From Alphaproteobacteria bacterium (GTDB taxonomy: Bacteria > Pseudomonadota > Alphaproteobacteria > RF32 > CAG-239), in the NCBI GenBank assembly GCA_028706255.1, contig JAQWBS010000001.1:23617-87616 (forward strand): DNA of 64,000 bases, written 5' to 3'. A program made the translations under genes and the position numbers. Shown here in pieces: positions 3,204 through 23,122 of this stretch. Position 1 is the stretch's first letter. The number at the start of each line of letters is the position of its first letter. The notes below the pieces were generated by a model. The model made no database searches. It worked only from the letters and a program-made list of their open reading frames with translations, and was not told the origin of the DNA.

Positions 3204-3902
3204 CTAAGCTTTGTTATGTTTCTCGATAAAAGCAATAACAAGCTCCTGATTAGGAAATTTCTTTGCAGACAAAGAATAGATATCTCCTGCAGATTTCCAA
3301 TTTACAGAGCAATCTTTATACTCAAAACCAAGTTTCTCAATTAAGTCATAAAACGCATTGAAATAATTAGGTCTATTAGCTTTATATTGCTTACGCGCTT
3401 GCAACTGTAAACTTGAAACCAAATCACCAACAAGCGTATAACCCATCTCAGAAAGCCAATTAAAATGGCGAGAAGCAAAAGTGGGAATAAATGTCAGAGG
3501 AATTAATAGCCCTTCATTTATCTCCGACTTTCTAATGTCAAAAACCTTACCCTGCCAAAACAACTCAAAAGCTTTCTCCACACTAATAAACGGTGGAAAA
3601 TATTTTTGGGAAATCTCCATATGGTTATCGGGTAGCCAATCAACATGCTCAAAAGAATGACTAAAAGTTAACTCAAATTTTTTGAGTATTTCCTTAAGTT
3701 CTTTCAAACTTTTTTCACCGATGTTTCTAAACTTTAAAACATCTTCTTCGGAATACATCAATACTTCACCTAAATATGGACAATTCAAGTATCGTAAAAA
3801 ATTCAGGGTTCTTTGAGAAAGTTTTAGTTGCTCAATGGGGACGAAGTAACCAATCTTGCCTTCAAGCAAGGCTTTTTCTTCTGATAAAATCTCTTTTTTC
3901 AT
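3204..3902 (-). CDS. Stand-alone protein with two RNA polymerase alpha-subunit C-terminal-domain (alpha-CTD, HhH)-like domains
   Basis: LKLSQRTLNFLRYLNCPYLGEVLMYSEEDVLKFRNIGEKSLKELKEILKKF aligns at about 40% identity with this genome's own RpoA CTD ([51 protein letters not shown]). A second, weaker copy is NWLSEMGYTLVGDLVSS...LIEKLG. Confidence 0.55.
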   Translation of the reverse strand: MKKEILSEEKALLEGKIGYFVPIEQLKLSQRTLNFLRYLNCPYLGEVLMYSEEDVLKFRNIGEKSLKELKEILKKFELTFSHSFEHVDWLPDNHMEISQKYFPPFISVEKAFELFWQGKVFDIRKSEINEGLLIPLTFIPTFASRHFNWLSEMGYTLVGDLVSSLQLQARKQYKANRPNYFNAFYDLIEKLGFEYKDCSVNWKSAGDIYSLSAKKFPNQELVIAFIEKHNKA

Positions 3903-18012: not shown

Positions 18013-18324
18013 TTAAAGTTTAATTTCGACATTCACACCAGCTGCCAAGTCTAATTTCATTAGTGCATCAACAGTTTGTGGTGTTGGGTCTACGATATCA
18101 AGAAGTCTCTTATGTGTACGAATTTCGAACTGTTCACGAGATTTTTTATCAACGTGAGGAGAACGGTTAACAGTAAACTTCTCAATTTGTGTTGGAAGAG
18201 GAATTGGTCCTCTTACATTTGCCCCAGTTCTTTTGGCAGTATGAACGATTTCTTTAGTAGAAAGGTCCAATAATCTGTGATCAAAAGCCTTAAGGCGAAT
18301 TCTTATATTTTGTGCATCCATCAT
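18013..18324 (-). CDS. rpsJ: 30S ribosomal protein S10
   Basis: [16 protein letters not shown]...[12 protein letters not shown] matches S10. The start may be the second Met. Confidence 0.95.
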
Positions 18325-18756: not shown

Positions 18757-18857
18757 AAATACTATTGATTTATCACTAAATATTATTTAATTACGATATA
18801 TGGATGGTTACAGTTCATATTGTTATAATCAATAAATATTTGGTCTTTGAAACAACT

Positions 18858-19133
18858 ATGGTTAATCTAGTAAATAAAATTATTTGCTTAAGCTCTCATA
18901 ACACATGCATCAGACTTTGCGAAAAAGAATGGGAAGCATTTGATGAGATTTGTCTTAACAAAAAAATTAAAAGAAAAGCTCTAATTGAGAAAATCAAAGA
19001 AAAGAAGAGTGCTTGTATGGGACTAACCCCCGCAATCAGACTCTTTACTTTGCTCTATTATAAAGCTTTATACAATGAACCGGCTGGCGATGTTGAAAAC
19101 ATCTCCCTTGATGATCTCTTAAACTACATCTAA
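18858..19133 (+). CDS. Ribbon-helix-helix (RHH_4-like) domain protein
   Basis: SSHNTCIRLCEKEWEAFDEIC....KRKALIEKI followed by LTPAIRLFTLLYY resembles the alphaproteobacterial RHH_4 family (TSIRLEPEFWDALEEIA...LSSAIRLFVL). There is no convincing Shine-Dalgarno sequence, and the start (18804 or 18858) is ambiguous. Confidence 0.5.
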   Translation: MVNLVNKIICLSSHNTCIRLCEKEWEAFDEICLNKKIKRKALIEKIKEKKSACMGLTPAIRLFTLLYYKALYNEPAGDVENISLDDLLNYI

Positions 19134-19140
19134 TTTTTTG

Positions 19141-19935
19141 TTAAGGGGTTTTATGGCATTTTACCATACTCGGCATTTGCTGTCTCTTGAAAAACATTTT
19201 GCGGTATGTCTTCTCTATCAAACCGACGACGCTATTACTATGACCTCTTGCAACAATTTCTTTCACAGACAAGTTTTTATCGATTAACAACATCAAGATT
19301 TCATCTAACACGTCATATACTGGTAAACTATCTTCATCTTTTTGCCCCGCTTTTAGCTCTGCACTTGGTGCTCTTGAGATAACCGCTTCTGGCAAAACAC
19401 TTGCATAATGCCCATTAAGCCATTTAGCAAGAGCAAAAATTTGCGTTTTATACAAATCACCAATTGGCATTAACCCTCCGCAAGTGTCGCCATATAGCGT
19501 ACAATAACCCATAGCTGCTTCAGACTTATTGCCACATGCCAAAACCAAATAGCCAAACTGATTTGAAAGTGCCATCAAAATCTGTCCGCGAATTCTTGAT
19601 TGAACATTTTGCATCACCAAGTCTTTCGGGGTTTCTGCAAAAACCTGAGCGAATTTACGTTCATAATACTCAACCTCTGGCTGAATATCAATTACTTGAT
19701 AGTGGATTTTATTCCGCTTTGCAATTTCTTGAGCAATCTGCAAACTCAACATTGAAGTATATTTTGTTTTCATCATATAAGCATAAACATTATCTGCACC
19801 CAAAGCTTCTTTAGCAATAATTGAACAGACTGCAGAATCAAGCCCACCTGAGAGCCCTAAACAAACTTGCTTAAACCCATTTTGCTCACAATAATCCCTC
19901 ATTCCAACAACAAGTGCCTTCCAAATTTTTTCCAT
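19141..19935 (-). CDS. nadE: NH3-dependent NAD+ synthetase, single-domain form
   Basis: PP-loop LGLSGGLDSAV, size ~264 aa, no glutaminase domain. Starting at MEKIWKAL avoids an 88-nt overlap with nadM. Confidence 0.9.
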   Translation of the reverse strand: MEKIWKALVVGMRDYCEQNGFKQVCLGLSGGLDSAVCSIIAKEALGADNVYAYMMKTKYTSMLSLQIAQEIAKRNKIHYQVIDIQPEVEYYERKFAQVFAETPKDLVMQNVQSRIRGQILMALSNQFGYLVLACGNKSEAAMGYCTLYGDTCGGLMPIGDLYKTQIFALAKWLNGHYASVLPEAVISRAPSAELKAGQKDEDSLPVYDVLDEILMLLIDKNLSVKEIVARGHSNSVVGLIEKTYRKMFFKRQQMPSMVKCHKTP

Positions 19936-19951
19936 CTCATTTCTCCCAACC

Positions 19952-20494
19952 TTAAATAACCGCTTTTTTATTGAAGAAGCTCTCTTCAATAAGTTTATAA
20001 TTTTCAGGATTAATAAAGTTCTTCCATCGAACATCGCCAAATTTTATCATATCCCTCACCATTGTTCCGGTGACAAAGGGAAAATCTTGTGCCGTTCTAT
20101 CAATGAGTTCTATTTGCGTAAAAGCATGTCTAAACCAGTGTGCATCATAATTACTCCCTGCATAATAAACATCTGGCTTTGGCAAATCTGGAAAGCTTTC
20201 CAACATAAAATCCATTACATATTCCGCCCATTCTGCTGGATTATTAATATCAAACAATCCGATAATCTTCAGACGAGGATAATCAGGTGAATGACGATAG
20301 AGATTTTGAATCATTTTTTTTCGTGTGGTATAGTTAAGCGGATTACGCTCTGTGCCATGTTCTTGAATTGAACCAAGAACAATTGTCACTAATTCACACT
20401 CTTTTAACATCTTTTCAACAATGCGATGATGCCCAATGTGAAAAGGTTGAGCACGCATAATGGATAACCCATGTTTATATTTAAAATCAGACAT
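19952..20494 (-). CDS. nadM: Nicotinamide/nicotinate mononucleotide adenylyltransferase, archaeal NadM-type
   Basis: GLSIMRAQPFHIGHHRIVEKM carries the (H/T)xGH nucleotidyltransferase motif in a NadM-like N-terminus, at about 180 aa. The ATG at 20494 has a GGGAG Shine-Dalgarno sequence 7 nt upstream. Confidence 0.75.
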   Translation of the reverse strand: MSDFKYKHGLSIMRAQPFHIGHHRIVEKMLKECELVTIVLGSIQEHGTERNPLNYTTRKKMIQNLYRHSPDYPRLKIIGLFDINNPAEWAEYVMDFMLESFPDLPKPDVYYAGSNYDAHWFRHAFTQIELIDRTAQDFPFVTGTMVRDMIKFGDVRWKNFINPENYKLIEESFFNKKAVI

Positions 20495-20646
20495 AAAAAA
20501 ACTCCCATAAAATAGGAGCACAATTTGAGATGAGAAATCTATTCTCATATATCAATCAACATCAAACCGGCTCAGTTATATAAGTTCTTCACCCATTAGC
20601 CCTTCGGATGACGAGAACATGTTCAGTTTGATAGATTATCATCCCT

Positions 20647-20673
20647 TTGTCAAGAAAAAATCTAACTTGACAA
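20647..20673. promoter_or_regulatory. Perfect inverted repeat TTGTCAAG-N11-CTTGACAA in the divergent nadM / ORF20728 intergenic region
   Basis: An 8-bp perfect inverted repeat. Each half-site contains TTGACA reading outward. It is either an operator or face-to-face -35 elements. Confidence 0.4.
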
Positions 20674-20727
20674 AAAACTTTCAGGGGATAGACTAAACCC
20701 ATAAATCAATTTTTAGATTATATAATT

Positions 20728-20997
20728 ATGAAACCGACTCAAAACACCGCAACGTCTTCATTAGATGAAACCCTTGCGAACTTAGTGATTAAAAACGAAA
20801 GTGAAGCTCAGCAAATATGTAAAAGCGCTCAACCTTTTTATCTAGCAGAAATATCTGTTAAAGAACCAGATGAAAACAAAGCGCCTGAAACAATAATTGG
20901 TTGGATATCAAATGATGAATATCTAGTTGTTGACGCACTCACCGAAAAAAGATACTCCGCTTTGAACGCCGAATTTCAAGTTCTTAACTATCTATAA
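20728..20997 (+). CDS. Hypothetical small acidic protein (89 aa)
   Basis: ORF with non-repetitive composition. Its own terminator follows immediately. Confidence 0.45.
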   Translation: MKPTQNTATSSLDETLANLVIKNESEAQQICKSAQPFYLAEISVKEPDENKAPETIIGWISNDEYLVVDALTEKRYSALNAEFQVLNYL

Positions 20998-21063: not shown

Positions 21064-21285
21064 CTAAAGAGAAAACTTTCCTCTTCCGTCCGCTAGCACA
21101 CAATCCCGACCAGAAAACCAAACATCACAAAGCTGATTTCCAAGAGAAGGAATTCTTTTTCTTCCCGCCATCAATCTTGACTTATCAATACTAAGTTGAG
21201 TGGCTGCAGTGTCAACATTAACTTTCCAGTGAAAGGTCTTGTGTTTACAGTTGATATCAGTTGAACATCCAAAAGTTTTTTCCAT
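21064..21285 (-). CDS. Hypothetical small protein (73 aa, 4 Cys)
   Basis: ORF only. No Shine-Dalgarno sequence is recognisable. Confidence 0.3.
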   Translation of the reverse strand: MEKTFGCSTDINCKHKTFHWKVNVDTAATQLSIDKSRLMAGRKRIPSLGNQLCDVWFSGRDCVLADGRGKFSL

Positions 21286-21877: not shown

Positions 21878-23068
21878 TTACTTTAGAATCTTAGATACCA
21901 CACCGGCACCCACAGTTCTACCACCTTCACGGATTGCAAAACGAAGACCTTCGTCCATAGCAATTGGGTGAATGAGGTTTACTGTAATTGTTACGTTGTC
22001 TCCAGGCATTACCATTTCTGTTCCTGCTGGAAGTTCAATCGCTCCTGTTACGTCTGTTGTTCTGAAATAGAACTGTGGACGATAGTTACCGAAGAATGGC
22101 GTATGACGTCCACCTTCATCTTTGTTCAAGATATAGCATTCGCCATTGAAGCTTGTGTGTGGTGTGATTGAACCAGGAGCCGCTAATACTTGTCCACGTT
22201 CAACATCTTCTCTCTTCGTTCCACGAAGCAATACACCTACGTTATCACCTGCTTGACCACTATCCAACAATTTACGGAACATTTCAACGCCTGTACATGT
22301 TGTCTTAGCTGTTGGTTTAATGCCCACGATTTCCATTTCGTCACCAACTTTAATAACACCACGTTCTACACGACCTGTTACCACTGTTCCACGGCCTGAA
22401 ATTGAAAATACGTCTTCAATTGGCATCAAGAATGGTTTGTCAACTGCTCTTTCTGGTTGTGGAATATAAGCATCTACTGCATCCATCAAAGCAATAATTG
22501 CTTTCTTACCGATTTCTTCGTTGCTGTCTTCCAATGCTGCCAAAGCTGAACCTTTTACAATCGGAATTTCATCGCCAGGGAATTCGTATGAACTTAACAA
22601 ATCTCTGATTTCCATTTCAACGAGTTCCAACAATTCTTCATCATCAACTTGGTCTACTTTGTTCATAAATACTACCAAAGCTGGTACGCCTACTTGACGT
22701 GCCAACAAAATGTGTTCACGTGTTTGTGGCATTGGACCATCTGCTGATGATACCACCAAAATTGCACCATCCATTTGTGCCGCACCTGTAATCATATTCT
22801 TTACATAGTCAGCGTGGCCTGGGCAGTCTACGTGTGCATAGTGACGAGCCTTTGTTTCATATTCTACGTGTGACGTTGAAATCGTGATACCACGTGCTCT
22901 TTCTTCTGGTGCTTTATCAATATTTGCATAGTCTACAAATGCACCGCCGCCTTGTTCCGCCATAATCTTTGTAATTGCCGCTGTCAATGTCGTCTTACCA
23001 TGATCAACGTGACCAATCGTGCCAATGTTACAGTGCGGTTTATTACGCTCAAATTTCTCTTTTGCCAT
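21878..23068 (-). CDS. tuf: Elongation factor Tu
   Basis: [28 protein letters not shown] is the canonical EF-Tu N-terminus. Confidence 0.97.
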
Positions 23069-23101
23069 TTTAATTTTCTCCAAAAGCAAATTGTTACATG
23101 T

Positions 23102-23122
23102 GGGGTGAGAAGTTCTCACCCC
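23102..23122 (-). other. GC-rich hairpin (GGGGTGAG-loop-CTCACCCC) in the fusA|tuf spacer
   Basis: An 8-10-bp G+C stem in an AT-rich genome with no U-run after it. It is a possible processing or stability element or a weak attenuator. Confidence 0.35.

What the first reader, a model, noticed from the sequence alone, without database searches (positions are those of the whole stretch)
19141..20494. Adjacent single-domain NadE and archaeal-type NadM: candidate Francisella-like NaMN -> NMN -> NAD route
An NH3-dependent NadE without a glutaminase domain is convergent with and adjacent to a NadM-type NMN adenylyltransferase (FHIGHH motif, about 180 aa). In established work on Francisella, this pairing supports amidation of NaMN to NMN by NadE followed by adenylation by NadM. 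If nadD is absent from this genome, the pair would be its sole NAD route.
Basis: partly seen in the sequence, partly recalled or inferred. Interest (0 to 1): 0.5.

Follow-up and report, generated by a model that had tools for sequence, protein, structure and literature searches.

The report
Riboswitch-like leader controlling nadM-nadE operon
The two genes are a real, co-transcribed NAD-making pair left over from a four-gene vitamin-B3 salvage operon of uncultured gut Alphaproteobacteria, and they sit behind a conserved folded RNA leader that looks like a previously undescribed NAD-related riboswitch.

Summary
Both genes exist at the stated coordinates, but they are tandem on the minus strand, 16 nt apart, not convergent. 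They are nadM-like (19952-20494, 180 aa) followed by single-domain nadE (19141-19935, 264 aa).

NadM-like has the NadM fold and motifs but scores below the curated NadM cut-offs. NadE is closest to the synthetase half of two-domain NAD synthetases, not to Francisella NMN synthetase.

In about 80 related gut-Alphaproteobacteria genomes the usual operon is nadM-pncA-pncB-nadE. The window is one of several independent pncA-pncB deletion variants. Two diverged NadM-NadE fusion proteins also exist. So NadM-like probably replaces NadD in nicotinamide salvage.

The order of the last two steps is not resolved. I favour NaMN to NaAD to NAD over the Francisella order. Whether nadD is absent from the genome could not be tested.

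Unexpected result: every close relative carries a conserved 5' leader upstream of nadM. It has a covarying hairpin, an invariant 11-nt loop that can form a pseudoknot, and competing antiterminator and terminator/SD-sequestering helices. A second copy precedes pncA in relatives. It matches no Rfam family and differs from NAD+-I and NAD+-II. It is a strong candidate for a new riboswitch class.

The parts
20648..20653 (-). -35 box TTGACA of the nadM promoter
   Evidence: TTGAC(A/T) lies at a fixed distance (about 30 nt) upstream of the first helix in the window and in nearly all related loci. The -10 element in the window is weak (CAAACT, 17-nt spacer). The promoter assignment is inferred, not shown.
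20584..20618 (-). Leader hairpin. P1: 20618-20614 with 20588-20584. 2-nt bulge: 20613-20612. P2: 20611-20606 with 20594-20589. Conserved 11-nt loop GAAGGGCUAAU: 20605-20595.
   Evidence: Alignment A2 holds 71 distinct sequences. 98.6% of cells are paired, and 10 of 11 pairs show compensatory changes. 0 of 500 shuffles reach the observed score, and slid controls give 29-47% paired. RNAalifold predicts the same hairpin independently. Model R1 scores the window copy at 66 bits, E 2e-14.
20569..20577 (-). Conserved 3' tail of the aptamer: the remnant of the AAAC element (AAC in the window) followed by UGAGCC. AGCC (20572-20569) can pair with loop GGCU (20601-20598) to form an H-type pseudoknot.
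   Evidence: GAGCC and the loop bases AGGGCU.AU are invariant in all 71 sequences. In the second copy found in relatives, the tail is AUAAGCC and pairs with loop GGCUUAU over 7 bp. The pairing is inferred. Because the bases are invariant, there is no covariation to test it.
20516..20573 (-). Antiterminator alternative. GAGCCGGUUUG (20573-20563) pairs with CAAAUUGUGCUC (20527-20516) and encloses a variable hairpin.
   Evidence: In 83 leaders the minimum-free-energy fold is, or is within a median 0 kcal/mol of, the structure that pairs GAGC with the GCUC of the terminator's 5' arm. In the window the terminator form is -30.1 and the antiterminator form -29.2 kcal/mol.
20495..20519 (-). Terminator and Shine-Dalgarno-sequestering hairpin GCUCCUAU-UUU-AUGGGAGU followed by a U-run. 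The SD GGGAG is at 20506-20502, and the nadM AUG follows directly at 20494.
   Evidence: The terminator scan finds it: 8 pairs followed by a U-run. The element GGCUCCU...AGGAGUUUUUUU(A)AUG is present in every related leader.
19952..20494 (-). nadM-like gene: stand-alone NadM-type pyridine-mononucleotide adenylyltransferase, 180 aa
   Evidence: - Motifs: PFHIGH at residues 17-22 and VTGTMVR at 141-147. D82, I83 and W89 are invariant in the family.
- NCBIfam: best hits are NadM models, but below cut-off.
- Structure: AlphaFold2 pLDDT 92.3.
- Foldseek: top hits are archaeal NMNAT 1M8K, 1F9A and 1HYB (TM 0.7-0.8), then NadM-Nudix, NadR and PPAT.
19141..19935 (-). nadE gene: single-domain NAD synthetase, presumably NH3-dependent, 264 aa
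   Evidence: - PF02540: 232 bits. TIGR00552: 210 bits (cut-off 63.65).
- Best NCBIfam model is the C-terminal half (positions 266-526 of 546) of two-domain PRK13981, 345.8 bits.
- PDB: 5KHA 222 bits, 4F4H 221 bits, 3FIU (Francisella NadE*) 82.6 bits.
- 100% identical to MDD4555750.1.
- It keeps 80 of the 85 columns that are at least 95% conserved in its clade.

Best explanation
Window 19141-20653 (minus strand) is one transcription unit: promoter, structured leader RNA, nadM-like, nadE.

**What it is.** It is the trimmed form of a four-gene nicotinamide-salvage (Preiss-Handler-type) operon, nadM-pncA-pncB-nadE, that is typical of a clade of uncultured animal-gut Alphaproteobacteria. This lineage has deleted pncA-pncB cleanly.

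**The enzymes.**
- NadM-like is a stand-alone NadM-fold adenylyltransferase. It takes the place that NadD holds in the classical pathway (inferred from operon structure and from the fusions).
- NadE is a NAD synthetase that descends from the synthetase half of two-domain glutamine-dependent enzymes. It has lost the glutaminase domain, so it presumably uses free ammonia (inferred).
- Most likely order (inferred, not shown): NaMN is adenylated to NaAD by NadM-like, which probably also converts NMN to NAD, and NaAD is then amidated to NAD by NadE. This is the order used in Archaea and Acinetobacter.

**The leader.** Expression is set by the leader RNA.
- It is a covarying two-part hairpin whose invariant 11-nt loop can pair with an invariant downstream AGCC to form a pseudoknot.
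- When the pseudoknot forms (proposed: stabilised by NAD+ or a close nicotinamide/nicotinate nucleotide), the GAGCC tail is withheld from the antiterminator. The terminator hairpin, which also buries the Shine-Dalgarno sequence, then forms directly in front of the nadM start codon and the operon is switched off.
- Without ligand, GAGCC pairs with the terminator's 5' arm and the operon is read.
For: **Gene identity and co-transcription**
-.

**Operon context**
- Among the loci whose sequence reaches far enough downstream of nadM, 53 are nadM-pncA-pncB-nadE, 9 nadM-pncA-nadE, 9 nadM-nadE and 2 nadM only.
- The window's sister lineage L003 (NadM 88% identical) has the full operon in the same tuf-to-rpsJ position.
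- nadM-nadE states are scattered over the NadM tree, each beside a full-operon sister.
- The nadM-(pncB)-nadE module recurs in more distant genomes in other neighbourhoods.

**Functional coupling**
- Two NadM-NadE fusion proteins exist that are only 66% identical to each other.

**NadE still under constraint**
- NadE in nadM-nadE genomes is no more diverged from outgroups than in full-operon sisters.

**Canonical order is plausible**
- NadE scores 222 bits to bona fide NAD synthetases against 82.6 bits to Francisella NadE*.
- NadM works with NaAD-specific NADS in Archaea and Acinetobacter (PMC3376133).

**Leader RNA**
- Present in the window and in all 81 close loci with upstream sequence.
- Covariation. 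A second copy precedes pncA, with 65 distinct sequences, 99.2% paired and 9 of 11 pairs compensatory.
- Bistable terminator/antiterminator.
- No Rfam 15 match even at E<=10.
- Chance pattern matches in metagenomes and viral contigs do not score with the model.
Against: - No biochemical data exist. The substrate preferences of both enzymes and the RNA's ligand are all inferred.
- NadM-like fails the curated NadM cut-offs and is only 23-25% identical to solved NMNATs.
- The window lacks pncA-pncB, and no pncB could be tied to its MAG. The source of NaMN for NadE in this organism is therefore unknown. If there is none, NadE has no obvious substrate in either order.
- A canonical nadD elsewhere in the genome is not excluded.
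- The pseudoknot bases are invariant, so the pseudoknot itself has no covariation support.
- Folding the window leader alone gives a weak z-score of -1.04.
- The RNA is confined to one clade. It is absent from the fusion-bearing lineage L083 and from the more distant L232-L234.
Confidence: 0.6

Rival explanations
1. Francisella-like route. NadE amidates NaMN to NMN (NMN synthetase), and NadM-like then adenylates NMN to NAD. NadD is absent.
For: - NadM-family enzymes generally handle NMN well, and this route is established in F. tularensis (PMC3376133).
- nadM-only loci (L045, L065) imply that NadM-like can make NAD from NMN without NadE in the operon.
- The operon and the fusions fit either order.
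Against: - NadE is not related to Francisella NadE* more than to ordinary NAD synthetases: 82.6 bits against 211-222 bits.
- It is about 50% identical to the NaAD-using synthetase domains of Acinetobacter and Burkholderia enzymes.
- The archaeal NadM partner NadE has no detectable NMN synthetase activity (PMC3376133).
- The specificity residues of NadE* could not be compared, because Sorci 2009 is not held.
Confidence: 0.22
2. Ordinary pathway with an accessory enzyme. A canonical NadD elsewhere in the genome makes NaAD for NadE. NadM-like serves only NMN or nicotinamide-riboside salvage or recycling.
For: - nadD could not be searched for genome-wide.
- Many bacteria carry both NadD and an NMN-salvage adenylyltransferase (established knowledge of NadR and NadM).
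- nadM-only loci fit a pure NMN-salvage role.
Against: - nadM-like is the first gene of an operon that otherwise holds exactly the NadD-less remainder of the Preiss-Handler pathway.
- It is fused to NadE in two diverged proteins.
- Both nadM and pncA-pncB-nadE carry the same regulatory RNA.
- No NadD-type motif occurs in the 1.26 Mb of related sequence held. That sample is biased to this locus, so this is weak evidence.
Confidence: 0.13
3. The leader is not a metabolite riboswitch. It is instead a protein-dependent or purely structural attenuator, for example bound by a regulatory protein or responding to transcription/translation coupling.
For: - No ligand has been tested.
- The motif is limited to one clade.
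- A small ribbon-helix-helix ORF often lies next to the cluster.
- The single-sequence fold is not exceptional.
Against: - The architecture is that of known riboswitches: an invariant loop and tail flanked by covarying helices, with mutually exclusive antiterminator and terminator/SD helices.
- Two copies with different expression platforms (terminator type before nadM, SD-adjacent type before pncA) keep the same loop.
- RHH_4 is a DNA-binding fold, and its position is not constant.
Confidence: 0.25

Closest known systems
Francisella tularensis NadE* (NMN synthetase, PDB 3FIU) plus NadM route
   Same: A NadM-type adenylyltransferase is paired with a single-domain NadE, and NadD may have been replaced.
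   Different: - This NadE scores 82.6 bits to 3FIU against 222 bits to two-domain NAD synthetases.
- NadM here is a 180-aa stand-alone protein, not a 340-aa NadM-Nudix fusion.
- In relatives the genes form one operon with pncA-pncB.
- Substrate order is untested.
Archaeal NadM (M. jannaschii 1F9A, M. thermautotrophicum 1HYB) with single-domain NH3-dependent NadE
   Same: - Stand-alone NadM fold of about 170-180 aa, TM 0.7-0.8.
- HxGH and SxTxxR-type motifs, and the Trp aligned with the archaeal nicotinamide-stacking Trp (the role of that Trp is recalled from the literature).
- NadD-less pathway that runs NaMN to NaAD to NAD (PMC3376133).
   Different: - The host is bacterial.
- Identity is only 23-25%, and scores are below the TIGR01527 and PRK01153 cut-offs.
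- NadE belongs to the two-domain-type branch, not the archaeal PRK13980 type: 345.8 against 211.1 bits.
Acinetobacter NAD network: bifunctional NadM acting with a two-domain (type F) NAD synthetase
   Same: NadM substitutes for NadD together with a conventional NaAD-specific synthetase (PMC3376133). The closest solved relative of this NadE is the A. baumannii enzyme 5KHA.
   Different: - Here the glutaminase domain is gone. About 20 C-terminal residues of the two-domain enzymes also have no counterpart.
- NadM lacks the Nudix domain.
Classical Preiss-Handler salvage (PncA, PncB, NadD, NadE)
   Same: The relatives' operon encodes PncA (isochorismatase family), PncB (NAPRTase) and NadE.
   Different: The adenylyltransferase in the operon is NadM-like rather than NadD. 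The window itself has lost pncA and pncB.
NAD+-II riboswitch (pnuC motif, Streptococcus) and NAD+-I riboswitch (nadA motif, Acidobacteria)
   Same: A cis-acting leader RNA in front of NAD-metabolism genes, with predicted OFF logic. Like class II, it uses a pseudoknot between the aptamer and a 3' tail next to the ribosome-binding site (PMC7749635, PMC9841397).
   Different: - No match to either Rfam model, or to any of the 4227 families.
- Here the pseudoknot is made by a conserved terminal loop. In class II it is made by an internal loop beneath a variable terminal loop.
- It lacks class I's tandem bulged stem-loops.
- Host clade and gene association (nadM, pncA-pncB-nadE) differ.
- The ligand is unknown.

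Membership tests
NAD synthetase (NadE; PF02540 / TIGR00552) | Profile match above the curated cut-off over the whole synthetase domain | tested here: met
   PF02540 scores 232 bits (cut-off 21), covering residues 5-253. TIGR00552 scores 210.2 bits (cut-off 63.65).
NAD synthetase (NadE; PF02540 / TIGR00552) | N-type ATP pyrophosphatase P-loop SGGxDS | tested here: met
   The translation contains LSGGLDSAV. It aligns with LSGGIDSAL of 5KHA.
Single-domain, ammonia-dependent NadE (type N of De Ingeniis et al. 2012) | No fused glutaminase domain and no clustered glutaminase subunit | tested here: met
   The protein is 264 aa with no CN_hydrolase hit. No Nit-like gene lies in the operon of the window or of its relatives. 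The only CN_hydrolase in the window is Lnt. A remote subunit elsewhere in the genome is not excluded.
Single-domain, ammonia-dependent NadE (type N of De Ingeniis et al. 2012) | [quoted passage not shown] | tested here: inconclusive
   The alignments end at 521 of 549 (5KHA), 542 of 565 (4F4H) and model position 526 of 546, with only 5-11 query residues left. About 20 C-terminal residues therefore have no counterpart. The exact structural element was not mapped.
NMN synthetase (Francisella NadE*-type) | Closest relationship to characterised NMN synthetases | tested here: not met
   3FIU scores 82.6 bits and ranks seventh, behind three two-domain NAD synthetases (211-222 bits) and three single-domain NAD synthetases.
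NMN synthetase (Francisella NadE*-type) | Preference for NaMN over NaAD, and the active-site residues that close the adenylate subsite | not testable with these tools
   This needs kinetics. The paper defining the residues (Sorci 2009, PMC2651253) is not held.
NadM-type NMN/NaMN adenylyltransferase | Curated family models (TIGR01527, PRK01153) above cut-off | tested here: not met
   Scores are 56.7 bits (cut-off 181.2) and 60.9 bits (cut-off 127). These are nevertheless the best-scoring families. Nine stand-alone relatives and one NadM-NadE fusion sampled from the wider family behave the same way.
NadM-type NMN/NaMN adenylyltransferase | (H/T)xGH and SxTxxR nucleotidyltransferase motifs | tested here: met
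   PFHIGH lies at residues 17-22 and V[TS]x[TS]M[VI]R at 141-147. G21, H22, M145 and R147 are invariant in 41 sequences.
NadM-type NMN/NaMN adenylyltransferase | NadM fold closer than other nucleotidyltransferase folds | tested here: met
   The AlphaFold2 model has pLDDT 92.3. In Foldseek, ranks 1-13 are archaeal NMNAT (E about 1e-10, TM 0.68-0.82), ranks 14-20 are NadM-Nudix and NadR, and PPAT appears only from rank 21.
NadM-type NMN/NaMN adenylyltransferase | Adenylylation of NMN and/or NaMN | not testable with these tools
   This needs an enzyme assay. Context supports it indirectly: the operon with pncA-pncB-nadE, the fusion to NadE and the shared regulatory RNA.
Riboswitch (metabolite-sensing cis-regulatory RNA) | Conserved structure supported by covariation, with conserved unpaired nucleotides | tested here: met
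   10 of 11 pairs (copy 1) and 9 of 11 pairs (copy 2) show compensatory changes. 98.6% and 99.2% of cells are paired, and slid controls give 29-53%. The loop AGGGCU.AU and the tail AGCC are invariant.
Riboswitch (metabolite-sensing cis-regulatory RNA) | Expression platform with mutually exclusive structures | tested here: met
   A terminator/SD hairpin lies at the start codon. An antiterminator that uses the aptamer's GAGCC tail is the MFE fold, or close to it, in 83 leaders.
Riboswitch (metabolite-sensing cis-regulatory RNA) | Consistent association with genes of one pathway | tested here: met
   The motif is found only upstream of nadM and upstream of pncA, plus one weak hit upstream of a nadM paralogue. 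This holds across 1.1 Mb of related loci, the window and the true metagenome hits.
Riboswitch (metabolite-sensing cis-regulatory RNA) | Direct, selective ligand binding that changes gene expression | not testable with these tools
   This needs in-line probing or ITC, plus termination or reporter assays.
NAD+-I (nadA motif) / NAD+-II (pnuC motif) riboswitch families | Match to the family covariance model | tested here: not met
   Neither family is hit at gathering threshold, at E<=1 over 3.6 kb, at E<=10 over 181 nt, or at E<=5 over both copies in L034.

The most novel reading that the evidence does not exclude
The leader (window 20495-20622, minus strand) and its sister copy in front of pncA in related genomes are a third, structurally distinct class of riboswitch for NAD+ or a close nicotinamide/nicotinate nucleotide. 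It would use an H-type pseudoknot formed by an invariant 11-nt hairpin loop. It would control a NadD-less salvage operon in which a divergent NadM-type enzyme, fused to NadE in some lineages, supplies the adenylyltransferase step.
Probability: 0.5. Interest if true: 0.8.

Novelty: new variant of a known kind. Interest (0 to 1): 0.66.

Why it matters
**RNA**
- Only two NAD+ riboswitch classes are known, and both are rare and taxonomically narrow (PMC7749635). A third aptamer with a different fold, tied to nicotinamide salvage in gut bacteria, would widen the picture of how cells sense this cofactor.
- It would give structural biologists a new small pseudoknot to solve.
- It would also be a compact sensor part for NAD-pathway engineering.

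**Enzymes**
- A widespread bacterial subfamily of stand-alone NadM-like proteins is currently annotated only as 'adenylyltransferase/cytidyltransferase family protein'. The profile search finds 4683 cluster representatives at E<=1e-3.
- Its operon context and the NadM-NadE fusions allow a specific annotation. They also point to NadD-independent NAD synthesis in an uncultured gut lineage.
- That bears on predictions of niacin dependence in microbiomes.
- The graded loss series (four genes, three, two, one) is a clean example of ongoing pathway erosion.

Tried and rejected
- **'Convergent' arrangement:** rejected. Both genes are on the minus strand.
- **NadM-like as CoaD/PPAT, citrate-lyase ligase or a generic cytidylyltransferase:** rejected by the NCBIfam ranking and the Foldseek ranking.
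- **Reading the primary papers:** Sorci 2009, Sorci 2010 and Huang 2008 are not held. NMN-synthetase specificity residues therefore could not be compared.
- **Locating the source contig through the exact NadE sequence:** not on record. The NadM look-up gave only a 6-kb Logan contig identical to the window.
- **Genome-wide nadD test:** not possible with these tools.
  - A motif scan of the 1.26 Mb held found no NadD-type signature, but the sample is all one locus, so it says little.
  - The window has no nadD, nadC, pncB, nadV or pnuC.
- **Linking a pncB to the window's MAG:**
  - The best non-self hit to the sister lineage's PncB is 64% identical.
  - None of the best 120 hits lies on a 488,686-bp contig.
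  - None of the 10 NCBI-sourced clusters examined carries an MDD455... accession.
  - This is a weak negative only.
- **Known RNA families:** four Rfam searches found nothing relevant. The sub-threshold hits (PrrF, 6A, SmY and others) are chance.
- **Widening the RNA's gene contexts:**
  - The metagenome pattern scan gave 80 loci, of which only 6 were true, and all of those were nadM/pncA contexts.
  - The viral scan gave 28 chance matches and no true hit.
  - More distant nadM-nadE loci and the fusion locus lack the motif.
- **Single-sequence folding of the window leader:** z = -1.04, not informative on its own.
- **Literature searches for a described third NAD riboswitch or a nadM/pncA motif:** none found.
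Full report
**1. The observation**

The window has two intact ORFs on the minus strand.
- The first runs 19952-20548. Its conserved start is the ATG at 20494, giving 180 aa.
- The second runs 19141-20040. Its in-frame ATG is at 19935, giving 264 aa. That is the exact length and sequence of NCBI protein MDD4555750.1.
- They are separated by 16 nt containing GGGAGA.
The gene that converges on nadE is a small RHH_4 ORF at 18804-19133.
- The pair lies between tuf (21878-23119) and rpsJ (18013-18324), inside an otherwise standard str/S10/spc ribosomal-protein region.

**2. NadE**

- It matches PF02540 at 232 bits and TIGR00552 at 210 bits (cut-off 63.65). It carries the SGGLDS P-loop.
- It has no glutaminase domain.
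- Its best NCBIfam model is not a single-domain family. It is positions 266-526 of the 546-position two-domain enzyme PRK13981 (345.8 bits), against 211.1 bits for the archaeal-type single-domain PRK13980.
- Among solved structures it scores 222, 221 and 211 bits to the synthetase domains of the two-domain enzymes of Acinetobacter, Burkholderia and Streptomyces. It scores only 82.6 bits to Francisella NadE* (3FIU).
- About 20 C-terminal residues of the two-domain enzymes have no counterpart. This fits loss of the glutaminase partner as described by De Ingeniis et al. (PMC3376133), but I did not map the structural element.
- All 120 best database relatives are single-domain proteins of about 260 aa from the same clade.

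**3. NadM-like**

- The protein has PFHIGH (residues 17-22) and a V[TS]x[TS]M[VI]R motif (141-147). D82, I83 and W89 are invariant in the family. W89 aligns with the Trp of the archaeal enzymes. From memory of the M. thermautotrophicum structure papers, that Trp stacks on the nicotinamide ring.
- Its best NCBIfam hits are all NadM or NadR models, but far below cut-off: 60.9 against 127, and 56.7 against 181.2. NCBI's pipeline calls it only an 'adenylyltransferase/cytidyltransferase family protein'.
- An AlphaFold2 model (pLDDT 92.3) is closest to archaeal NMN adenylyltransferases (TM 0.7-0.8, 23-25% identity). Next come NadM-Nudix and NadR, and PPAT appears only after those.
- A profile search finds 4683 cluster representatives at E<=1e-3. 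Nine stand-alone relatives and one NadM-NadE fusion sampled from these show the same sub-threshold NadM signature.
- It is therefore a divergent, stand-alone bacterial branch of the NadM fold family. It is not a certified member of the curated NadM equivalogs.

**4. Context in relatives**

Close homologues occur only in uncultured Alphaproteobacteria MAGs from human, chicken, ruminant and other animal guts.

Among the loci whose sequence reaches far enough downstream of nadM, the gene orders are:

| Gene order | Loci |
|---|---|
| nadM-pncA-pncB-nadE | 53 |
| nadM-pncA-nadE | 9 |
| nadM-nadE (includes the window) | 9 |
| nadM alone, next to rpsJ | 2 |

- The window's closest relative, L003 (NadM 88% identical), has the full four genes in the same tuf-to-rpsJ slot.
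- On a NadM tree the two-gene state is scattered, each time beside a four-gene sister. pncA-pncB has therefore been deleted repeatedly and independently.
- NadE in two-gene genomes is no more diverged than in four-gene sisters. The window's NadE keeps 80 of 85 highly conserved columns, so it is probably still functional.
- More distant lineages carry nadM-pncB-nadE or nadM-nadE with overlapping stop and start codons in unrelated neighbourhoods.
- Two natural NadM-NadE fusion proteins, 66% identical to each other, exist.
- Together these show that NadM-like and NadE act in one pathway with PncA and PncB. NadM-like occupies the place of NadD.

**5. Which order of steps?**

- The literature does not allow that inference. 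Archaea pair NadM with a NadE that has robust NaAD activity and no detectable NMN synthetase activity. Acinetobacter pairs a bifunctional NadM with a conventional synthetase. Only Francisella adapted NadE to NaMN (PMC3376133).
- This NadE is much closer to conventional synthetases than to NadE*, so I favour NaMN to NaAD to NAD.
- This remains an inference. The specificity residues could not be compared because the defining paper is not held.
- Whether nadD is absent from the genome could not be tested. The window has none, and no other NAD gene.
- I could not tie any pncB to the window's MAG. The source of NaMN in this particular organism is therefore open.

**6. The leader RNA**

*How it was found.* A terminator-like hairpin followed by a U-run ends directly at the nadM start codon and contains its Shine-Dalgarno sequence. 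Comparing the regions upstream of nadM showed a conserved leader in the window and in all 81 close loci.

*Layout of the leader, 5' to 3':*
- TTGAC(A/T), about 30 nt upstream of the first helix.
- A 5-bp helix, a YG bulge and a 6-bp helix, closed by the loop G-M-AGGGCUUAU.
- A short linker.
- AAAC-Y-GAGCC.
- A variable hairpin.
- GGCUCCU...AGGAGUUUUUUU(A)AUG.

*Support for the hairpin.*
- On 71 distinct sequences, 98.6% of cells pair and 10 of 11 pairs show compensatory changes.
- No shuffle reaches the observed score, and slid controls give 29-47% paired.
- RNAalifold predicts the same hairpin on its own.

*The pseudoknot.* Loop GGCU can pair with tail AGCC. Both are invariant, so this pairing is proposed rather than demonstrated.

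*The switch.* In 83 leaders, the minimum-free-energy fold, or one within a median 0 kcal/mol of it, pairs the GAGCC tail with the GGCUC of the terminator's 5' arm. That is an antiterminator. In the window the terminator form is -30.1 and the antiterminator form -29.2 kcal/mol. This is the classical design of an OFF riboswitch: pseudoknot formation frees the terminator/SD-sequestering hairpin.

**7. A second copy**

- A covariance model of the motif finds one strong hit per locus (58-80 bits). In loci that have pncA it also finds a second, weaker hit in the nadM-pncA spacer.
- This copy has 65 distinct sequences. It keeps the same bulged hairpin (99.2% paired, 9 of 11 pairs compensatory) and the identical loop.
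- Its tail is AUAAGCC, which extends the possible pseudoknot to 7 bp (GGCUUAU:AUAAGCC). The tail abuts the pncA Shine-Dalgarno sequence.
- So the same aptamer appears with two expression platforms, one transcriptional and one translational.
- The window has lost this copy along with pncA-pncB.
- The motif is absent from the fusion-bearing lineage and from more distant nadM-nadE loci.
- Pattern matches elsewhere in metagenomes and viral contigs do not score with the model.

**8. Comparison with known RNAs**

- Rfam 15 gives no match at any threshold tried.
- The two known NAD+ riboswitch classes differ in architecture and host. Class I has tandem bulged stem-loops and occurs in Acidobacteria upstream of nadA. 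Class II has two stems joined by a large internal loop that forms the pseudoknot with the RBS, a variable terminal loop, and occurs in Streptococcus upstream of pnuC (PMC7749635, PMC9841397).
- Literature searches found no third class and no nadM- or pncA-associated motif.
- I therefore regard the leader as a strong candidate for a new riboswitch class. The regulated genes point to NAD+ or a near precursor as ligand. The ligand and the binding itself are untested.

**9. Verdict**

- The Francisella-type interpretation is possible, but it is not the best-supported reading.
- The locus is more interesting than proposed. It holds a NadD-less salvage module built around an unannotated NadM-like subfamily, with recurrent gene loss and natural fusions. 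It is controlled by an apparently undescribed, well-covarying pseudoknot RNA.

Noticed in passing
window 20495-20653 (- strand): Conserved structured leader upstream of nadM. It has a covarying bulged hairpin with an invariant 11-nt loop, a GAGCC tail, competing antiterminator and terminator/SD hairpins, and a TTGACA -35 box. It matches no Rfam family.
   Followed up: yes
L003:10552-10620, L034:10556-10627 and 63 further loci (nadM-pncA spacer): Second copy of the same RNA motif in front of pncA. The possible pseudoknot extends to 7 bp (GGCUUAU:AUAAGCC) and lies directly next to the pncA ribosome-binding site. The window lacks this copy because pncA-pncB are deleted.
   Followed up: yes
L083:431-1774 (P0171) and P0241: Natural NadM-NadE fusion proteins (447 and 444 aa), 66% identical to each other. 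The L083 locus lacks the RNA motif. It instead has a palindrome (TGTACGTTGTACGTACAGCGTACAA) about 110 nt upstream of the gene, which may be a protein operator.
   Followed up: partly
L002:4916-5446; L079:5005-5541; L038:2924-3430 (- strand): A second nadM-like paralogue, about 50% identical to the first, occurs in some genomes. In L038 a weak hit of the RNA model (21 bits) lies upstream of it. The two copies may have split NaMN and NMN specificity.
   Followed up: partly
related loci L003-L082 (gene orders): Graded erosion of the operon: nadM-pncA-pncB-nadE, then nadM-pncA-nadE, then nadM-nadE, then nadM alone. The losses are scattered across the NadM tree, so they are repeated and independent. 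nadM is never the gene lost.
   Followed up: yes
window 18804-19133 (+ strand); L002:690-968, L011:380-589 and L015:307-516 (- strand): A small ribbon-helix-helix (PF13467, RHH_4) ORF lies next to the NAD cluster in several genomes. It is downstream and convergent in the window and L003, and upstream and divergent in L002, L011 and L015. Whether it regulates the cluster is unknown.
   Followed up: no
window 20646-20674: Inverted repeat TTTGTCAAG-N11-CTTGACAAA spans the nadM -35 box. It places a second TTGACA on the opposite strand, facing the divergent 89-aa ORF at 20728-20997. This looks like back-to-back promoters or an operator.
   Followed up: no
window 3204-3902 (- strand): A 232-aa ORF downstream of rpoA-rplQ whose only Pfam match is the RNA polymerase alpha C-terminal domain (PF03118, 62.7 bits). 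It appears to be a stand-alone alpha-CTD-like protein.
   Followed up: no
window 20728-20997 (+ strand) and 21064-21285 (- strand): Two small ORFs (89 and 73 aa) between tuf and the nadM promoter have no family match. The 89-aa ORF is conserved at 63% identity in L003.
   Followed up: no
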